Assembly (NCBI GenBank): GCA_043799385.1
Contig: JAZDNV010000004.1
Span: forward strand, 1 to 17,443
From: Candidatus Aenigmatarchaeota archaeon
GTDB taxonomy: Archaea > Aenigmatarchaeota > Aenigmatarchaeia > GW2011-AR5
Reading direction: 5' to 3'
Length of the DNA stretch: 17,443 bases
Positions within the stretch are counted from its first letter, which is position 1. Each line of letters opens with the position of its first letter. A program made the position numbers and the translations under genes. The notes below the pieces were generated by a model. That model ran no database searches, had not been told where the DNA came from, and saw nothing but the letters and a program-made list of their open reading frames with translations. This document shows positions 4,203 through 12,437 of the stretch, in pieces.

Positions 4203-4511
4203 CTATTTTTTCTTAATGTTTTTATATGGATAGTGAATTGTTTTATCGCAGGAAAAGCATTTAATACTTACCTTGCCCTTGTTTAGTCTCTGACGACAAC
4301 TGACACCTGGCAAAAAGTAATTGTAGCAGTATTTGCAGAAGCGCCGTTTCAGTCGCCCGAGCCTTATATTATAGCGCATGCCAATCTTTTTCGCCAGACG
4401 CGTGTAGCGTTTTGCCAGTTCCGGGTCTTCTTTAACCGTCTTCTGTGCCTCGTTGAACAATATCGCTATGCGCTCTTTCGCAATCTTCAATTGCTCGACT
4501 GGTTTCTCCAT
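4203..4511 (-). CDS. rnp4: Ribonuclease P protein component 4 (Rpp21/Rpr2)
   Basis: IAKERIAILF...LAKRY..LAKKI...KRRFCKYC...C..C...YPY. Canonical position upstream of rps19e. Confidence 0.95.
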   Translation of the reverse strand: MEKPVEQLKIAKERIAILFNEAQKTVKEDPELAKRYTRLAKKIGMRYNIRLGRLKRRFCKYCYNYFLPGVSCRQRLNKGKVSIKCFSCDKTIHYPYKNIKKK

Positions 4512-6016: not shown

Positions 6017-7045
6017 TCACTCGATATGGCTCCACTTCAGCTGAGAATCATATTTTATATCATGCTTTGCCTTTTTTCCCAAAACGCGATGCAGGTCTTT
6101 TGCATGAATCTCGCCAGTGCCAGGACGCTTAACCCAGACGTTCTCCTCTGTCAGTATTTCGCCTGCTTTTATATCTCGAATCGCAACGACGCAGTGGCGG
6201 GCGAATTCAACGACAGGCAACTCGTCTTCGATTATCTTCTTTTCCGAGCCCAGAGCCTGATGGATTGCTTTAGAGCCAACGACCAATTCCTTTAACTCAT
6301 CTGGCTCTATCGATAACTTTTGGTCAGGACCAGGCCAATTCCTGTCAAGAGTAAAATGTTTTTCCACCAAGCAAGCGCCTAGCGCGACTGCGCCTAGCGC
6401 GGTATAAATCCCGAAAGAATGGTCGGACAAGCCGACAGGAACGTTAAATTCGTCTCTTAGCACTTTCATTGCACCCAGTTTCACATCGCTATGTTTAGAC
6501 GGATAGGTAGATGTGCACTGGAGTAGAATAAACGGCACGTTAAATTTTTTTATCGCATCGACGCTTCGCATGACTTCCTCTAATTCGCTCATTCCAGTCG
6601 ATATTATCATCGGTTTCCCTTTTTCTGCAATGTGCTCCAGAAACGGAATATTCGTCAGTTCACCTGAGCCTATCTTGAATGCAGGAACGTTTATGCTATC
6701 AAGGAAATCCGATGCTTCAATTGAAAACGGCGTTGACAAAAACATTATGCCGCGCTTTTCGCACCGCTTCTGCAATTCCTTGTGCTCGTCTTCGCTGAGC
6801 TCGCAGCGCTTGATTATGTCGAATAAGCGCTCGTCCGATATCTTGCCAGGCTTCATGTCAGTGTGAATCATCTCCTTCTCGGTGAAGTGCGTCTGGAATT
6901 TGATTGCCTCAGCGCCCGCATTAGCTGCTGCATCGACAAGCAATAGCGCTTTCTCTATATCGCCCTCGTGGTTTATCCCGACATCAGGCAGGATTAGCGG
7001 CAGCTCGTCATCACCAATAAAACGATGCGCGATTTTTATCTTCAT
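6017..7045 (-). CDS. neuB: N-acetylneuraminate/nonulosonate synthase with C-terminal SAF domain
   Basis: GINHEGD, IKFQT, FLSTPF, FKIGSGE, IISTGM, CTSTYP, GLSDH, VEKHFTLD, GPDQ, KRPGTG motifs. Confidence 0.96.
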   Translation of the reverse strand: MKIKIAHRFIGDDELPLILPDVGINHEGDIEKALLLVDAAANAGAEAIKFQTHFTEKEMIHTDMKPGKISDERLFDIIKRCELSEDEHKELQKRCEKRGIMFLSTPFSIEASDFLDSINVPAFKIGSGELTNIPFLEHIAEKGKPMIISTGMSELEEVMRSVDAIKKFNVPFILLQCTSTYPSKHSDVKLGAMKVLRDEFNVPVGLSDHSFGIYTALGAVALGACLVEKHFTLDRNWPGPDQKLSIEPDELKELVVGSKAIHQALGSEKKIIEDELPVVEFARHCVVAIRDIKAGEILTEENVWVKRPGTGEIHAKDLHRVLGKKAKHDIKYDSQLKWSHIE

Positions 7046-7088
7046 AATCCAAAGTATTTATGAAAAGATTTAAATCTGGAACAAGGAT

Positions 7089-7192
7089 GATTCGGCTTTG
7101 TTTAAAAAATGATGGACATCTGTCTGATATCCATCGATTCAGGCTATCATCTGCTTCTAGCGATGATAGCCTAGTTTTTAAACAAAGCAATC
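7089..7192. ncRNA. Candidate ~100-nt three-way-junction structured element (small RNA, leader or MITE-like DNA)
   Basis: Perfect 14-bp inverted repeat GCTTTGTTTAAAAA (7095-7108)/TTTTTAAACAAAGC (7175-7188) enclosing hairpins 7111-7135 and 7141-7172 (11-bp perfect stem). Confidence 0.6.
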
Positions 7193-7233
7193 TGATTCAA
7201 AACATTTATATATTTTCAAGGAATAGCAGAAGC

Positions 7234-7695
7234 ATGTTCGTCGCAAGAATGAGTTTTCCGAACAGAGAACCGCCTGTAAGAGCTTATGTGCACAAGGCAG
7301 GCTTAGCCGCGTATGGCGATTATCCAATTGAAGGAGCAAAGAGATATCTGCTTGAGGTTCTGGACAATTACCAAAAAGAGTGTGCTCACTACAATCTTAT
7401 TCTGGCAGCGCTGTGGGGAGACAACGGCTCAAGAATGATAGACTTCTTCGGTTTCAGCAACATAGGAAAAAGATGGGACAAAAATCCTGATATCTCCGCG
7501 TGGGTAATCAAAGACGGATTGCACATTCCTAAAAAAGAGATAACGTGCGGCGATACGCTAATCGCGCTGGGCAGAGAAGAGGAGTGCAGGCGATTTTCAA
7601 GTAATGCTTTGGATTACATGAGGTATCATCATGATTTGGGCGAATTGGAACCGAAAATAAGCGAACTGTCGTGGGAAGGAAACAGCAAAAAATAG
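7234..7695 (+). CDS. Hypothetical protein (~153 aa)
   Basis: The ORF track starts at 7060, but that 5' part crosses the structured element. TATA ATTTATATA at 7204-7212 fits a leaderless start at ATG 7234. Confidence 0.7.
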   Translation: MFVARMSFPNREPPVRAYVHKAGLAAYGDYPIEGAKRYLLEVLDNYQKECAHYNLILAALWGDNGSRMIDFFGFSNIGKRWDKNPDISAWVIKDGLHIPKKEITCGDTLIALGREEECRRFSSNALDYMRYHHDLGELEPKISELSWEGNSKK

Positions 7696-10278: not shown

Positions 10279-10812
10279 ATGATAATTGAATTAATCCAGC
10301 TTTTTGTATTGAGCGTGATAATCAGAAGCATAAAGACAATCGAAGATATAACACAAATCGGAGGGCATAAGACAATCACCGCTTTTCTGATAGTAATTGA
10401 AACGGTGTTCTTTCTTTATGTTTTCAGGGCGATCGTATTGAGCGACCTGAACCTGTTTTTGCTCGTTGCAGTCGCTGGCGGATATGTGGCAGGATATTAC
10501 CTTGGGTCAATCATAGAAGATAAGATGGCGCTTGGAAAGCTGATTGTTACAATCAAGATTTCGAAAAGTCATTCAAAACATCTTTCTAAAATACTGAGAG
10601 ACAACGGCTTTGTTTTCATACAGTCAAAAAGGTTCTACACCCACAAGGGAAAGCTGAGAAAAATACACCAGGGAATAATATACAGGAAAGAGCTGCCAAA
10701 GCTAAAACATATAACAAAGGACCTGCCAATAATCGCTACGGTCGAAGACGTGAAATCCACGTTCGGCAAGAAAATAATCAGCTCCAAGGACTACCTTGAG
10801 GCGAACAAATAA
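10279..10812 (+). CDS. UPF0316-like (DUF5698/DUF2179) membrane protein
   Basis: Three TM segments followed by AGGYVAGYYLGSIIEDKMALG, then a soluble domain with LRDNGF. Confidence 0.8.
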   Translation: MIIELIQLFVLSVIIRSIKTIEDITQIGGHKTITAFLIVIETVFFLYVFRAIVLSDLNLFLLVAVAGGYVAGYYLGSIIEDKMALGKLIVTIKISKSHSKHLSKILRDNGFVFIQSKRFYTHKGKLRKIHQGIIYRKELPKLKHITKDLPIIATVEDVKSTFGKKIISSKDYLEANK

Positions 10813-10845
10813 CCGCTGGAGACTTAATTGTGTCACTATAGCGGT
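10812..10845 (+). terminator. Stem-loop directly after the stop codon
   Basis: ACCGCT...GAC TTAATTGT GTC...AGCGGT inverted repeat. Function not established. Confidence 0.3.
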
Positions 10846-10927
10846 ATTCACTAAATCGTAATTAAAATTACACAGCTTTAAGTAGTATACAGTATATAAT
10901 ATATTTAGGAATATATAGGTGAGAAAT

Positions 10928-11032
10928 ATGAAATATACAATTCGAAAGTTAACAATAAGTTCTTTATTGACACGAGCAGTATGGCAACTTAAGGATAACT
11001 TCTCACAATTTTATCCTAGACCAAACGTTTGA
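10928..11032 (+). CDS. Putative 34-aa micro-ORF or leader peptide
   Basis: GGTGA SD 5 nt before ATG. MKYTIRKLTISSLLTRAVWQLKDNFSQFYPRPNV*. TATA-like CTTTAAGTA at ~10876-10884. Confidence 0.45.
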   Translation: MKYTIRKLTISSLLTRAVWQLKDNFSQFYPRPNV

Positions 11033-11059
11033 CATCCAATTTAGGAACTTATCATATTT

Positions 11060-11339
11060 GATAGGCTGATAACGTGGCACCAAGGTTCCTCAATGTGAGG
11101 AGCTCACTACTGACATAATTCAGCGATTTTGCTGGAAGAGACTGCATCATTCGGCTTTTGAACCGAAAAAGATAACCCAACAATGACAAGAGAAAGACAT
11201 TAATAATGTGCGTTAATAATGGGCGTGAAAACTTATCATTCTGGGTTTGCAAATTTGACGTGTTCAGTCTTCTTGGAAATCAGTAATCTAAAGGTCAGGG
11301 TTTCTGAGACTCAGTCGCCAAAACCACGTTATCCCTATT
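11060..11339 (+). ncRNA. Candidate ~280-nt multibranched structured RNA, family unrecognised
   Basis: Closing stem GATAACGTGG (11068-77)/CCACGTTATC (11324-33) plus ATAGG/CCTAT. At least seven nested compatible helices, several with G-U pairs on +. Followed by a T-rich tract (11344-11360). Confidence 0.7.
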
Positions 11340-11380
11340 AGAATTTTATTTATTTTTATTGATCGTAAACGGTGAGAAAT

Positions 11381-11491
11381 ATGAAAACATGTATTAAATG
11401 CGATAAGAGTTTTAAGGAAAAACAAGATTATTATAATCTATGTTATGATTGCTGGAAAGCTGACATGAAGAATAATAAGGGTTATTTCTGA
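11381..11491 (+). CDS. 36-aa CxxC-x13-CxxC zinc-finger micro-protein (not in the ORF track)
   Basis: GGTGA SD. MKTCIKCDKSFKEKQDYYNLCYDCWKADMKNNKGYF*. Confidence 0.75.
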   Translation: MKTCIKCDKSFKEKQDYYNLCYDCWKADMKNNKGYF

Positions 11492-11522
11492 TTGATGGAC
11501 TTTCTTTGAATAGAAAAGAGAC

Positions 11523-11805: not shown

Positions 11806-12270
11806 CTAAGAATAATTCTTCAATTCAAGTAAGTGCTGATGTTGCCATTCTCGTTCTTTAGCTACGGCATCGTCAGAACCGGTGGCTCTATGGATGGCCT
11901 GTTGGGCATAAATTGCAGGACCATAAGAATGTCGTGGAACATGAGCTGTTGCTACTGCCTGGCCGGCGGCACGGGCAGCAGAGCGAGCCGCATTGTTCTC
12001 TCCTACTTCGCGGGCAGCAGCATGAGCGTCAAGCGAAGCCTTGCGAATAACTGCCATCTTAAACACCCCTGTATCTATCCAAGTACGTAAGGTCGTGATA
12101 GCGTTTCGAGGGCGATTGTCTTCCGGATATTTTTCATCAAAGTACGGCAGGACACGCTTAGCGCAGTCAGCAGCCCAGACTGCTAATGTTTTATGGTCAG
12201 TTTTGCTCGCAAGCTTTACAATTCTCTCGTCTTTGTAGCGTGTAAGTGAAAATTTGGATTTTTCTTTCAT
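11806..12270 (-). CDS. Imm5-like 'putative immunity protein' (154 aa)
   Basis: HKTLAVWAADCAKRVLPYF...PEDNRPRNAI...AHAAARE...AARAAGQAVATAHVPRH...YA...EREWQ signature. Start moved to ATG 12270 because the longer ORF overlaps the tRNA. Confidence 0.85.
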   Translation of the reverse strand: MKEKSKFSLTRYKDERIVKLASKTDHKTLAVWAADCAKRVLPYFDEKYPEDNRPRNAITTLRTWIDTGVFKMAVIRKASLDAHAAAREVGENNAARSAARAAGQAVATAHVPRHSYGPAIYAQQAIHRATGSDDAVAKEREWQHQHLLELKNYS

Positions 12271-12288
12271 ATTCTCACAAAAGTTTAG

Positions 12289-12437
12289 AGCCTCCGGAGG
12301 GAATTGAACCCCCAACCTTCTGTTTACAAAACAGATGCTCTTTCCTGAGACCTTTCTAAGATAATGCCACTTGTTTCTTTGAATCCAAGGGCCTTTCTTT
12401 ACAAAGAAAGGGGCTTGCCAGGTTGAGCTACAGAGGC
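12289..12437 (-). tRNA. tRNA-Thr(UGU) with a 75-nt D-loop intron (exons 12437-12417 and 12341-12289)
   Basis: Acceptor GCCTCTG/CGGAGGC, D-stem GCTC/GAGC, anticodon arm TCTGT-TTTGTAA-ACAGA, T-arm GGGGG-TTCAATT-CCCTC. CCA is not encoded. Confidence 0.95.
12342..12416 (-). other. Non-canonical tRNA intron (position ~20/21) with a BHB-like splice motif
   Basis: Central helix CCTG/CAGG followed by 3-nt GCA and AAA. Cutting after the second nt of each restores the D-loop AACCTGGCA. Confidence 0.88.

What the first reader, a model, noticed from the sequence alone, without database searches (positions are those of the whole stretch)
11060..11339. Unassigned ~280-nt RNA carrying an RNase P-like double T-loop module
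Seen nested helices: 11068-77/11324-33, 11085-92/11096-103, 11108-13/11280-85, 11119-24/11131-36, 11139-44/11265-70, 11150-54/11163-67, 11174-79/11242-47, 11182-90/11232-40 and apical 11198-11221. The apical helix is flanked by AGAAA (11191-95) and GTGAAA (11225-30). Known: this matches the CR-II/CR-III interdigitated T-loops around P12 of RNase P RNA, a motif that RNase P, T-boxes and the L1 stalk use to grip the tRNA elbow. The catalytic GAGGAAAGUCC/P4 consensus is absent. Inference: a new tRNA-binding RNA or a highly derived RNase P relative, about 1 kb from a tRNA gene.
Basis: partly seen in the sequence, partly recalled or inferred. Interest (0 to 1): 0.85.

Follow-up and report, generated by a model that had tools for sequence, protein, structure and literature searches.

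The report
Orphan structured RNA in a DPANN archaeon
A roughly 285-base stretch between two genes of an uncultured tiny archaeon folds far better than chance and matches no known RNA family, but nothing found here shows that it is related to RNase P or that it binds tRNA.

Summary
The helices are real. All 8 coordinate-paired helices check base by base (55 of 56 positions pair). The 280-nt stretch folds at -78.9 kcal/mol, z = -3.57, with 0 of 200 shuffles as stable. In a fold scan of 246 window-strands it is one of only two loci with z below -4.

The window is a chromosomal contig of a Woesearchaeota-like DPANN archaeon. The element spans 11057-11342. It lies in a 560-nt gap between a UPF0316 gene and a tiny zinc-ribbon ORF, and a T-tract follows it on the + strand.

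Rfam 15 gives no match, even at E up to 10. No protein signal was found in any frame. No relative turned up in phages, plasmids or 20 fetched loci, so covariation could not be tested.

The AG..A and UG..A pentamers are present. However, the apical hairpin they flank has pair probability 0.22, and such modules arise by chance about once per 23 kb of single strand. The RNase P core is absent.

Verdict: a credible orphan structured RNA. RNase P kinship is not supported, and tRNA docking remains an untested idea.

The parts
11057..11342 (+). Structured RNA domain. A 19-bp closing helix (11057-65/11334-42 plus 11068-77/11324-33, with a 2-nt bulge) encloses a hairpin (11084-92/11096-104), a central helix (11110-14/11294-98, or the alternative 11108-13/11280-85), a hairpin at 11119-24/11131-36, a long arm (11139-44/11265-70, a hairpin at 11150-54/11163-67, then 11174-79/11242-47 and 11182-90/11232-40, ending in an ambiguous apical hairpin at 11198-11226) and a 3' hairpin at 11299-11319.
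Evidence: Folds. Base-by-base check. Z-score scan.
11191..11195 (+). AGAAA pentamer, the candidate T-loop 1 (AG..A), directly 3' of helix 11182-90.
   Evidence: Read from the sequence. Core residues are as defined in PMC3664808 (passages read). The structural role is untested.
11226..11230 (+). UGAAA pentamer, the candidate T-loop 2 (UG..A), one base 5' of helix strand 11232-40.
   Evidence: Read from the sequence. In the most probable alternative apical hairpin, 11225-26 are paired. The structural role is untested.
11344..11362 (+). T-rich tract (TTTT A TTT A TTTTT A TT). It looks like an archaeal terminator for a + strand transcript. The same A/T-rich DNA could also act as a TATA box for the next ORF or for the - strand.
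   Evidence: Read from the sequence. No comparable T-run lies beyond the other end on the - strand. That oligo-T tracts terminate archaeal transcription is established knowledge, not tested here.
11040..11047 (+). TTTAGGAA, a weak TATA-like box. It ends 21 nt before G11069, the start of the inner closing helix. This is an inferred promoter.
   Evidence: Many of the 29 start sites listed show a TATA-like box roughly 20-40 nt before the ATG; for three read closely (7234, 6017, 14370) it ends 21-22 nt before the ATG (by eye). The octamer occurs 3 times in the window, and 14 of 200 shuffles reach that count. Weak evidence.
10918..10933 (+). First copy of the exact 16-nt repeat GGTGAGAAATATGAAA (Shine-Dalgarno-like GGTGA, spacer, ATG AAA), opening a 34-aa ORF (10928-11032).
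   Evidence: only these two sites match, even at up to 3 mismatches. ORFs listed.
11371..11386 (+). Second copy of the 16-nt repeat, opening the 36-aa zinc-ribbon ORF (11381-11491).
   Evidence: Pfam gives only weak zinc-ribbon hits (best E = 0.036).

Best explanation
The element at 11057-11342 is a stand-alone, + strand, structured non-coding RNA of about 280 nt from a Woesearchaeota-like DPANN archaeon. It lies in a variable stretch of chromosome between a UPF0316 membrane-protein gene and the 3' end of a tRNA gene.

Proposed working (all inferred):
- Transcription starts near 11069 from a weak TATA-like box.
- It ends in the T-tract at 11344-62.
- The long helix joining the 5' and 3' ends closes the molecule and shields both ends from exonucleases.
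- The four-branched core presents loops and junctions as a scaffold for a protein or RNA partner that is still unknown.

Shown here: the fold is far better than chance, it is independent of context, it is non-coding, and it matches no curated family. Inferred only: strand, ends, expression and any partner. Docking of a tRNA elbow on an AG..A/UG..A double T-loop at the tip of the long arm is one possible partner interaction. It is not the favoured one.
For: Fold: z = -3.57 on the + strand and -4.37 on the - strand, with 0 of 200 shuffles as stable in each case.

Rank in the window: one of two loci below z = -4 among 246 window-strands.

Robustness: the same domain is recovered inside a 506-nt context. 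Seven of the nine helices mostly have pair probability above 0.8, with a few end pairs at 0.56-0.75.

Composition: GC is 41%, against 30% and 22% in the adjoining spacers.

Non-coding:
- No + strand frame exceeds 44 aa.
- The 66/75-aa frame on the - strand has no homologue among 5.8 billion clusters. Among 1.84 billion representatives it has only one hit, E = 4e-5, spread over 11 stretches of a 1235-aa protein, which I read as noise.
- None of the 14 stop-to-stop frames matches Pfam at E below 0.1.

Strand: the T-tract lies directly after the closing helix on the + strand only. In the 11 high-probability helices there are 65 Watson-Crick pairs, 6 G.U pairs valid only on the + strand and 1 valid only on the - strand. 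Those helices were chosen on the + fold, so this count leans towards the + strand.

Setting: a 560-nt gap with only two tiny ORFs, flanked by closely spaced ORFs.
Against: There is no comparative evidence at all.
- No relative was found in phage or plasmid records.
- None was found in 20 loci fetched through the neighbouring gene, using blastn and nhmmer, a full-length covariance model with default filters (next best 11.7 bits, E = 0.29), or the same model with filters off on four downstream gaps (best 5.4 bits).
- Covariation is therefore untested, and the fold rests on one sequence.

Expression is unknown. The promoter call is weak.

The - strand folds slightly better (-82.7 against -78.9; 9 against 12 G.U pairs), so thermodynamics does not settle the strand.

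Stems are almost free of mismatches and the termini form an inverted repeat. A DNA-level or mobile element would look the same.

The element lies in DNA that varies between relatives, which argues against a housekeeping role.
Confidence: 0.42

Rival explanations
1. Cis-acting leader. The structured domain is the 5' untranslated region of the zinc-ribbon ORF (11381-11491), or a long 3' UTR of the UPF0316 gene. It would control read-through at the T-tract or access to the Shine-Dalgarno/ATG, in the manner of a riboswitch or attenuator.
For: The downstream ORF carries GGTGA 5 nt before its ATG. By my reading of the 29 listed start sites, only about 4 show a GGTG-type motif within about 15 nt of the start, so a leadered transcript is plausible for this ORF. 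The closing helix ends 1 nt before the T-tract (11342 against 11344). In the 506-nt fold the T-tract pairs with the stretch holding the Shine-Dalgarno spacer and the start codon.
Against: No Rfam cis-regulatory family matches. The T-tract should terminate transcription before the ORF. The same A/T-rich tract sits where a TATA box for a leaderless start at 11381 would lie. Riboswitch-type control is rare in archaea (recalled, not tested). No ligand or partner is suggested by the tiny ORF, whose best Pfam hit has E = 0.036.
Confidence: 0.2
2. Miniature non-autonomous mobile element (MITE-like) or another DNA-level palindromic insertion, lodged in the variable DNA next to a tRNA gene. The fold would then be a by-product of nested inverted repeats.
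For: The terminal inverted repeat is 10/10 plus 7/9 with a 2-nt offset. Both strands fold equally well. Stems are nearly perfect: 65 of 72 pairs are Watson-Crick. The site lies between a UPF0316 gene and a tRNA 3' end; in relatives that interval holds anything from 13 nt to 5.2 kb of unrelated DNA. An exact 16-nt direct repeat brackets a 453-nt block that contains the element. A second near-perfect nested palindrome sits at 7092-7192.
Against: There is no second copy in the 17.4-kb window or in 20 fetched loci. No clean target-site duplication abuts the inverted repeat: the flanks TTTGA and TTAGA match at 4 of 5 positions, by eye. The interior is a set of distinct local hairpins, not two mirrored halves. 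No transposase or integrase signal was found in neighbouring ORFs. The two structured elements share no significant similarity; their best shared word is 10 nt, E = 0.077.
Confidence: 0.15
3. One reading: a tRNA-binding RNA, or a highly derived RNase P RNA relative, that grips the tRNA elbow with an interdigitated double T-loop at the tip of the long arm.
For: All six core residues of the module (AG..A and UG..A) are present, flanking a hairpin and closed by a 9-position helix (definition from passages of PMC3664808). It is the only such module in the window under the loose descriptor. The general layout loosely recalls RNase P: a closing helix, a 5' hairpin, and a long arm ending in the module. 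The organism encodes an Rpr2/Rpp21 RNase P protein about 6.5 kb away.
Against: No match to any RNase P, T-box or other Rfam model, even at E up to 10 on 301 nt. The CR-I consensus is absent: 0 of 37 near-matches lie in the element. No P4 partner strands are apparent. The loose descriptor finds 37 modules in 530 kb of single strand, against 22.65 in shuffles, which is roughly a 1% chance for any 280-nt stretch. The strict descriptor found 24, against 8-28 in shuffles, and missed this instance. The apical hairpin has P = 0.22, and its main competitor pairs the U that opens the second pentamer. The element sits in variable, non-syntenic DNA.
Confidence: 0.05
4. No function. The fold is a chance or decaying feature of spacer DNA, for example the remnant of a lost gene.
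For: It is a single sequence with no relatives, no expression data, and a position in variable DNA.
Against: 0 of 200 shuffles on either strand fold as well. Only one other locus in the window has comparable z. GC is raised over the flanks. No protein remnant is detectable: 0 of 14 frames in Pfam. A test against the rubrerythrin of L011, prompted by a 54-nt blastn hit to 10916-10969, gave a best E of 0.15.
Confidence: 0.18

Closest known systems
Archaeal RNase P RNA (Rfam RF00373; type T RF02357), specificity-domain J11/12-P12-J12/11 module
   Same: A hairpin flanked by AG..A and UG..A pentamers and closed by a helix, at the end of a long arm. The molecule is closed by pairing of its 5' and 3' ends, with a hairpin directly after the closing helix.
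   Different: There is no covariance-model match at any threshold tried. The CR-I consensus is absent. No P4 pseudoknot is apparent. The arm has a three-way junction where RNase P has the P7-P10 four-way junction; that comparison is recalled, not tested. The element sits in variable DNA.
[quoted passage not shown] 2013, PMC3664808)
   Same: All six conserved core residues are present in the right order and strand topology.
   Different: Only the sequence signature could be checked. The signature is short and occurs at near-chance frequency. The intervening hairpin is not the favoured fold. There is no 3D or binding evidence.
Orphan large structured RNAs found by fold and intergenic-gap screens (for example the candidates of PMC8632094 and PMC2864571; search listing only)
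   Same: A GC-enriched, well-folding, non-coding island in a long intergenic gap, with no assigned function.
   Different: Those candidates were defined from multiple sequences with covariation. This is one sequence with none, and it comes from a DPANN archaeon.
Miniature inverted-repeat transposable elements (MITEs)
   Same: The size of about 285 bp, a terminal inverted repeat of about 17-19 bp, a stable fold on both strands, and a position in variable DNA.
   Different: No second copy, no clear target-site duplication and no cognate transposase were seen. The interior is made of distinct hairpins rather than mirrored halves.

Membership tests
RNase P RNA (archaeal RF00373, type T RF02357, bacterial RF00010/RF00011) | A match to the family covariance model | tested here: not met
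   Rfam 15 at gathering score over the whole window gives only a tRNA. At E up to 10 over 1001 nt there are three unrelated weak hits. At E up to 10 over 301 nt there are 0 hits.
RNase P RNA | CR-I consensus (GAGGAAAGUCC) supplying the 5' strand of P4 | tested here: not met
   With up to 3 mismatches there are 37 matches in the window, at chance level (shuffle mean 38.5), and none lies within 11057-11342. The motif was taken from the finding's own text.
RNase P RNA | The long-range P4 helix between the region after P3 and the region before the 3' strand of P1 | tested here: inconclusive
   Only a 5-bp ACUGA/UCAGU option exists. It competes with two other partners of the same 5' strand. Pseudoknots are not modelled by the folding tool.
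RNase P RNA | The J11/12-P12-J12/11 double T-loop | tested here: inconclusive
   The six core residues are present. The apical helix has P = 0.22. The signature is not specific.
[quoted passage not shown] | The six conserved residues AG..A and UG..A in two pentamers joined through a hairpin | tested here: met
   AGAAA at 11191-95 and UGAAA at 11226-30 flank 11198-11221 and are closed by 11182-90/11232-40. The definition comes from passages of PMC3664808.
[quoted passage not shown] | Occurrence beyond chance, or conservation across homologues | tested here: not met
   The loose descriptor finds 37 hits in 264,758 bases on two strands, against a mean of 22.65 (range 12-32) in 20 shuffles. The strict descriptor finds 24, against 8-28 in 10 shuffles. 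There are no homologues in which to test conservation.
[quoted passage not shown] | The three-dimensional interdigitated fold and stacking on the tRNA G19:C56 platform | not testable with these tools
   No RNA 3D prediction or binding assay was available.
T-box leader (RF00230) | A covariance-model match, that is, Stem I with a specifier loop plus the T-box antiterminator sequence | tested here: not met
   No Rfam hit at E up to 10. The specifier and antiterminator were not searched for separately.
Archaeal SRP RNA (RF01857) | A covariance-model match | tested here: not met
MITE | Terminal inverted repeats | tested here: met
   11068-77/11324-33 match at 10/10. 11057-65/11334-42 are identical at 7/9 at the DNA level, and the other two positions form G.U pairs on the + strand.
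MITE | A target-site duplication abutting the repeats | tested here: not met
   The flanks match at only 4 of 5 positions under one choice of ends (by eye). The exact 16-nt direct repeat lies 123 nt and 28 nt outside the inverted repeat.
MITE | Multiple copies in the genome | tested here: inconclusive
   There is no second copy in the 17.4 kb of the window or in the 20 loci. The rest of the genome is not available.

The most novel reading that the evidence does not exclude
The element would be the founding member of a new class of DPANN archaeal RNAs. Such an RNA would carry an RNase-P-type double T-loop at the tip of a ruler-like arm and use it to dock the tRNA elbow, without any catalytic core. 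It could sense, sequester or chaperone tRNA, as an archaeal counterpart of the T-box Stem I principle.
Probability: 0.05. Interest if true: 0.8.

Novelty: new member of a known kind. Interest (0 to 1): 0.3.

Why it matters
DPANN archaea have tiny, densely packed genomes, and very few of their non-coding RNAs are described. Two full-text searches found no paper dealing with this: 'RNase P RNA' plus 'DPANN' returned 2 papers, and none of the 15 papers listed contains the word DPANN. A 285-nt, strongly folding, family-less RNA in a gap that such a genome could easily have lost is therefore a reasonable candidate for a new RNA family.

If the double T-loop were real, it would be a fourth, independent use of the tRNA-elbow dock, and the first in an archaeal non-ribosomal, non-RNase-P RNA.

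As it stands, this is a single-sequence candidate. Its value is as a seed: model R1 and the coordinates above can be run against Woesearchaeal genomes and metatranscriptomes.

Tried and rejected
**Known RNA family.** Rejected. Rfam 15 was run three ways.

**Phage or plasmid origin.** No blastn or megablast match. No PHROGs or PADLOC signal of note in 16 neighbouring ORFs.

**Protein-coding on the - strand (66/75 aa).** No homologue. One search gave one hit, spread over 11 stretches of a 1235-aa protein, which I read as noise.

**Protein-coding on the + strand.** The longest open frame is 44 aa, and it has no homologue.

**Decayed pseudogene.**
- 0 of 14 frames match Pfam at E below 0.1.
- A 54-nt blastn hit of the spacer (10916-10969) to L011 turned out to be the start of a rubrerythrin gene.
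- tblastn of that protein on 10800-11520 gave a best E of 0.15.

**Syntenic homologues.**
- One genome scan through the UPF0316 neighbour gave 20 loci: 12 archaeal at 46-67% identity and 8 bacterial.
- Of 28 window ORFs, only the query gene is shared, plus the M48 peptidase in L011.
- blastn and nhmmer found nothing.
- Covariance model R1 found only itself.

**Kinship with the second structured element at 7092-7192.** No significant similarity. Model R2 finds only itself, on both strands.

**SRP RNA, H/ACA, C/D and hammerhead.** Considered by eye and left, with no Rfam support.

**The bacterial promoter/terminator scan.** Not relevant to an archaeon and not used.

**Could not be done.**
These include contigs of about 1 kb whose UPF0316 proteins are 77-80% identical.
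- The zinc-ribbon ORF, at 39 aa, is too short for the homologue search. The Atlas gave only unnamed clusters.

Full report
**Where the window comes from.** The 17.4-kb window is 43% GC. It encodes ribosomal proteins L31e and S19e, the RNase P protein Rpr2/Rpp21, NeuB, a UDP-GlcNAc 2-epimerase, a UbiA prenyltransferase and an M48 peptidase. The 177-aa gene just upstream of the finding is a UPF0316-type membrane protein. Those of its 46 relatives that carry organism names come from Woesearchaeota, Nanoarchaeota and Aenigmarchaeota assemblies. The best genomic matches, at 62-67% identity, include three Woesearchaeota assemblies, alongside two records at 64% labelled Nanohaloarchaea and Methanosarcinales. 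I therefore treat the window as chromosomal DNA of a Woesearchaeota-like DPANN archaeon. Many of the 29 start sites listed show a TATA-like box roughly 20-40 nt before the ATG and no Shine-Dalgarno motif. For three that I read closely (7234, 6017, 14370) the box ends 21-22 nt before the ATG, so these genes look leaderless (my reading).

**The observation.**
55 of 56 positions pair, including two G.U pairs, and the two pentamers sit at the stated coordinates.
- The 280-nt stretch folds at -78.9 kcal/mol on the + strand (z = -3.57) and -82.7 on the - strand (z = -4.37). None of 200 dinucleotide shuffles does as well on either strand.
- As a control against cherry-picking, I scanned the whole window: 280-nt windows, step 140, both strands, 20 shuffles each, 246 window-strands (one search gave no answer and was repeated). 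Only two loci fall below z = -4: this one, and 6861-7280.
- Inside a 506-nt context the same domain refolds unchanged. Its closing helix grows to 9 + 10 bp, at 11057-65/11334-42 and 11068-77/11324-33.
- The element is 41% GC. The spacers on either side are 30% and 22%.
- Two helices are not favoured in the ensemble. Helix 11108-13/11280-85 has P = 0.03; the competitor 11110-14/11294-98 has P = 0.85. The apical hairpin 11198-11221 has P = 0.22; its competitor 11206-14/11218-26 has P about 0.4.

**Not coding, and not a known RNA.**
- No + strand frame exceeds 44 aa.
- The 66-aa ORF on the - strand has no relative among 5.8 billion clusters, not even a record of itself.
- Its 75-aa stop-to-stop frame found a single hit among 1.84 billion representatives: E = 4e-5, 26% identity, spread over 11 stretches of a 1235-aa protein. 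I read this as noise.
- The 44-aa + frame found nothing. None of the 14 stop-to-stop frames matches Pfam at E below 0.1.
- Rfam 15 finds only a tRNA in the window at gathering score. It finds nothing relevant at E up to 10 in 1001 nt, and nothing at all in 301 nt.

**Search for relatives.**
- blastn and megablast against phage and plasmid records found nothing.
It returned 20 loci, 12 of them archaeal.
- Synteny is not kept. Of 28 window ORFs, only the query gene is shared, plus the M48 peptidase in one locus.
- blastn and nhmmer found no similarity to the element.
- A full-length covariance model built from the single sequence (R1) scored 369 bits on itself. It scored at most 11.7 bits (E = 0.29) elsewhere in 264,758 bases. 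With filters off it reached at most 5.4 bits in four gaps downstream of UPF0316.
- Covariation, the decisive test, could therefore not be run. As a result, the contigs of about 1 kb whose UPF0316 proteins are 77-80% identical stayed out of reach.

**Genomic setting.** In four of the related loci a tRNA-Gly(TCC) gene on the opposite strand follows the UPF0316 gene. It lies 13-20 nt away in L008 and L004, and 2.1 kb and 5.2 kb away in L002 and L001, with unrelated ORFs between. The window has the same pattern with a tRNA-Thr about 1.5 kb downstream. The interval holds the element, a 36-aa zinc-ribbon ORF, a 79-aa ORF and an Imm5-like gene. The element therefore lies in DNA that varies between relatives and abuts a tRNA 3' end. 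That speaks against a housekeeping RNA and keeps a mobile origin open. No integrase, transposase, phage or defence signal was found nearby.

**Strand and ends.** Thermodynamics does not decide the strand. The + strand is favoured for two reasons. First, a T-tract (11344-62) begins 1 nt after the extended closing helix (11342), and nothing similar lies beyond the other end on the - strand. Second, the high-probability helices hold 6 G.U pairs that work only on the + strand, against 1 that works only on the - strand. That count is biased, because the helices were chosen on the + fold. A weak TATA-like octamer at 11040-47 would place a start near 11069, at the inner closing helix, but the octamer is not significantly enriched.

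**The RNase P and T-loop idea.**
- The module defined by Lehmann et al. (PMC3664808; abstract and passages read) has six nearly invariant residues, AG..A and UG..A. All six are present here, in the right topology.
- The signature is short. A strict descriptor found 24 cases in 265 kb, against 8-28 in shuffles, and missed this instance. A looser descriptor that recovers it found 37 cases, against a mean of 22.65 (range 12-32) in 20 shuffles. It gave a single hit in the window, which is this one.
- The hairpin between the pentamers is not the preferred fold.
- The CR-I consensus is absent, no P4 partners are apparent, and no RNase P, T-box or SRP model matches.
- The Rpr2 gene about 6.5 kb away shows that the organism has an RNA-based RNase P (see also the passages of PMC6380272 read). 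It does not tie this element to it.
- I rate RNase P kinship as not supported, and tRNA docking as possible but unlikely, at about 5%.

**Conclusion.**
- The best-supported reading is an orphan, + strand, closed-end structured RNA of about 285 nt with an unknown partner (confidence about 0.42).
- Shown: the fold statistics, the absence of coding and family signals, and the variable setting.
- Inferred: the strand, the ends, expression and any mechanism.

Noticed in passing
window 7092-7192 (both strands): A second, even stronger structured element. It is Y-shaped, with a 14-bp closing stem and two near-perfect hairpins (-44 kcal/mol, z = -7.9, 0 of 200 shuffles as stable). It lies between the divergent NeuB start (7045) and a TATA box at 7205-12 that serves an ATG at 7234. 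A palindromic TTTAAA box at about 7069-76 could also drive it on the + strand. Rfam gives only weak noise (9 hits, at most 15.9 bits). Covariance model R2 finds no copy in 12 archaeal loci. It shares no significant similarity with the finding.
   Followed up: partly
window 12289-12437 (- strand): The tRNA-Thr(UGU) gene appears to carry a non-canonical intron of about 76 nt in its D-loop. The 5' acceptor strand at 12437-31 pairs with 12296-90 (7 pairs, 1 of them G.U). The ARAGORN and Infernal calls start at 12362 and 12351, with a poor acceptor stem and a short D arm (32 bits). The 155-nt precursor folds as a cloverleaf with the insert in the D-loop. Removing the insert in silico gives an ARAGORN tRNA-Thr starting at 12437 in 160 of 256 cut pairs tried. 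The insert holds a hairpin that mimics an anticodon arm with UGU.
   Followed up: partly
window 10918-10933 and 11371-11386 (+ strand): An exact 16-nt direct repeat, GGTGAGAAATATGAAA (GGTGA, spacer, ATG AAA), opens two tiny ORFs of 34 and 36 aa. It brackets a 453-nt block that contains the finding. No other site in the window matches, even at 3 mismatches. It could be a duplicated start module, a shared operator, or the scar of an insertion. Unexplained.
   Followed up: partly
window, start sites of the listed ORFs: Many of the 29 start sites listed show a TATA-like box (TTTAAATA or TTTATATA type) roughly 20-40 nt before the ATG and no Shine-Dalgarno motif. For three read closely the box ends 21-22 nt before the ATG, so these genes look leaderless. 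By my reading only about 4 sites show a GGTG-type motif near the start.
   Followed up: no
L004 3161-3232, L008 10544-10615, L002 12648-12719, L001 15740-15813: In four related archaeal loci a tRNA-Gly(TCC) on the opposite strand follows the UPF0316 gene, at distances from 13 nt to 5.2 kb, with unrelated ORFs between. This suggests a recurrent insertion hot spot at a tRNA 3' end.
   Followed up: partly
window 11806-12315 (- strand): The Imm5-like ORF (PF21805, E = 8.7e-44) was listed with a TTG start inside the tRNA gene. An in-frame ATG at 12270, 18 nt after the tRNA 3' end, is the more likely start.
   Followed up: no
window 4203-4511 (- strand): An Rpr2/Rpp21 RNase P protein subunit gene lies next to the S19e and L31e genes. 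No RNase P RNA is recognisable anywhere in the window by Rfam.
   Followed up: no
window 10813-10844 (+ strand): A 32-nt hairpin (CCGCT...AGCGG) lies directly after the UPF0316 stop codon. The 280-nt window starting at 10781 has z = -3.3 on the + strand.
   Followed up: no
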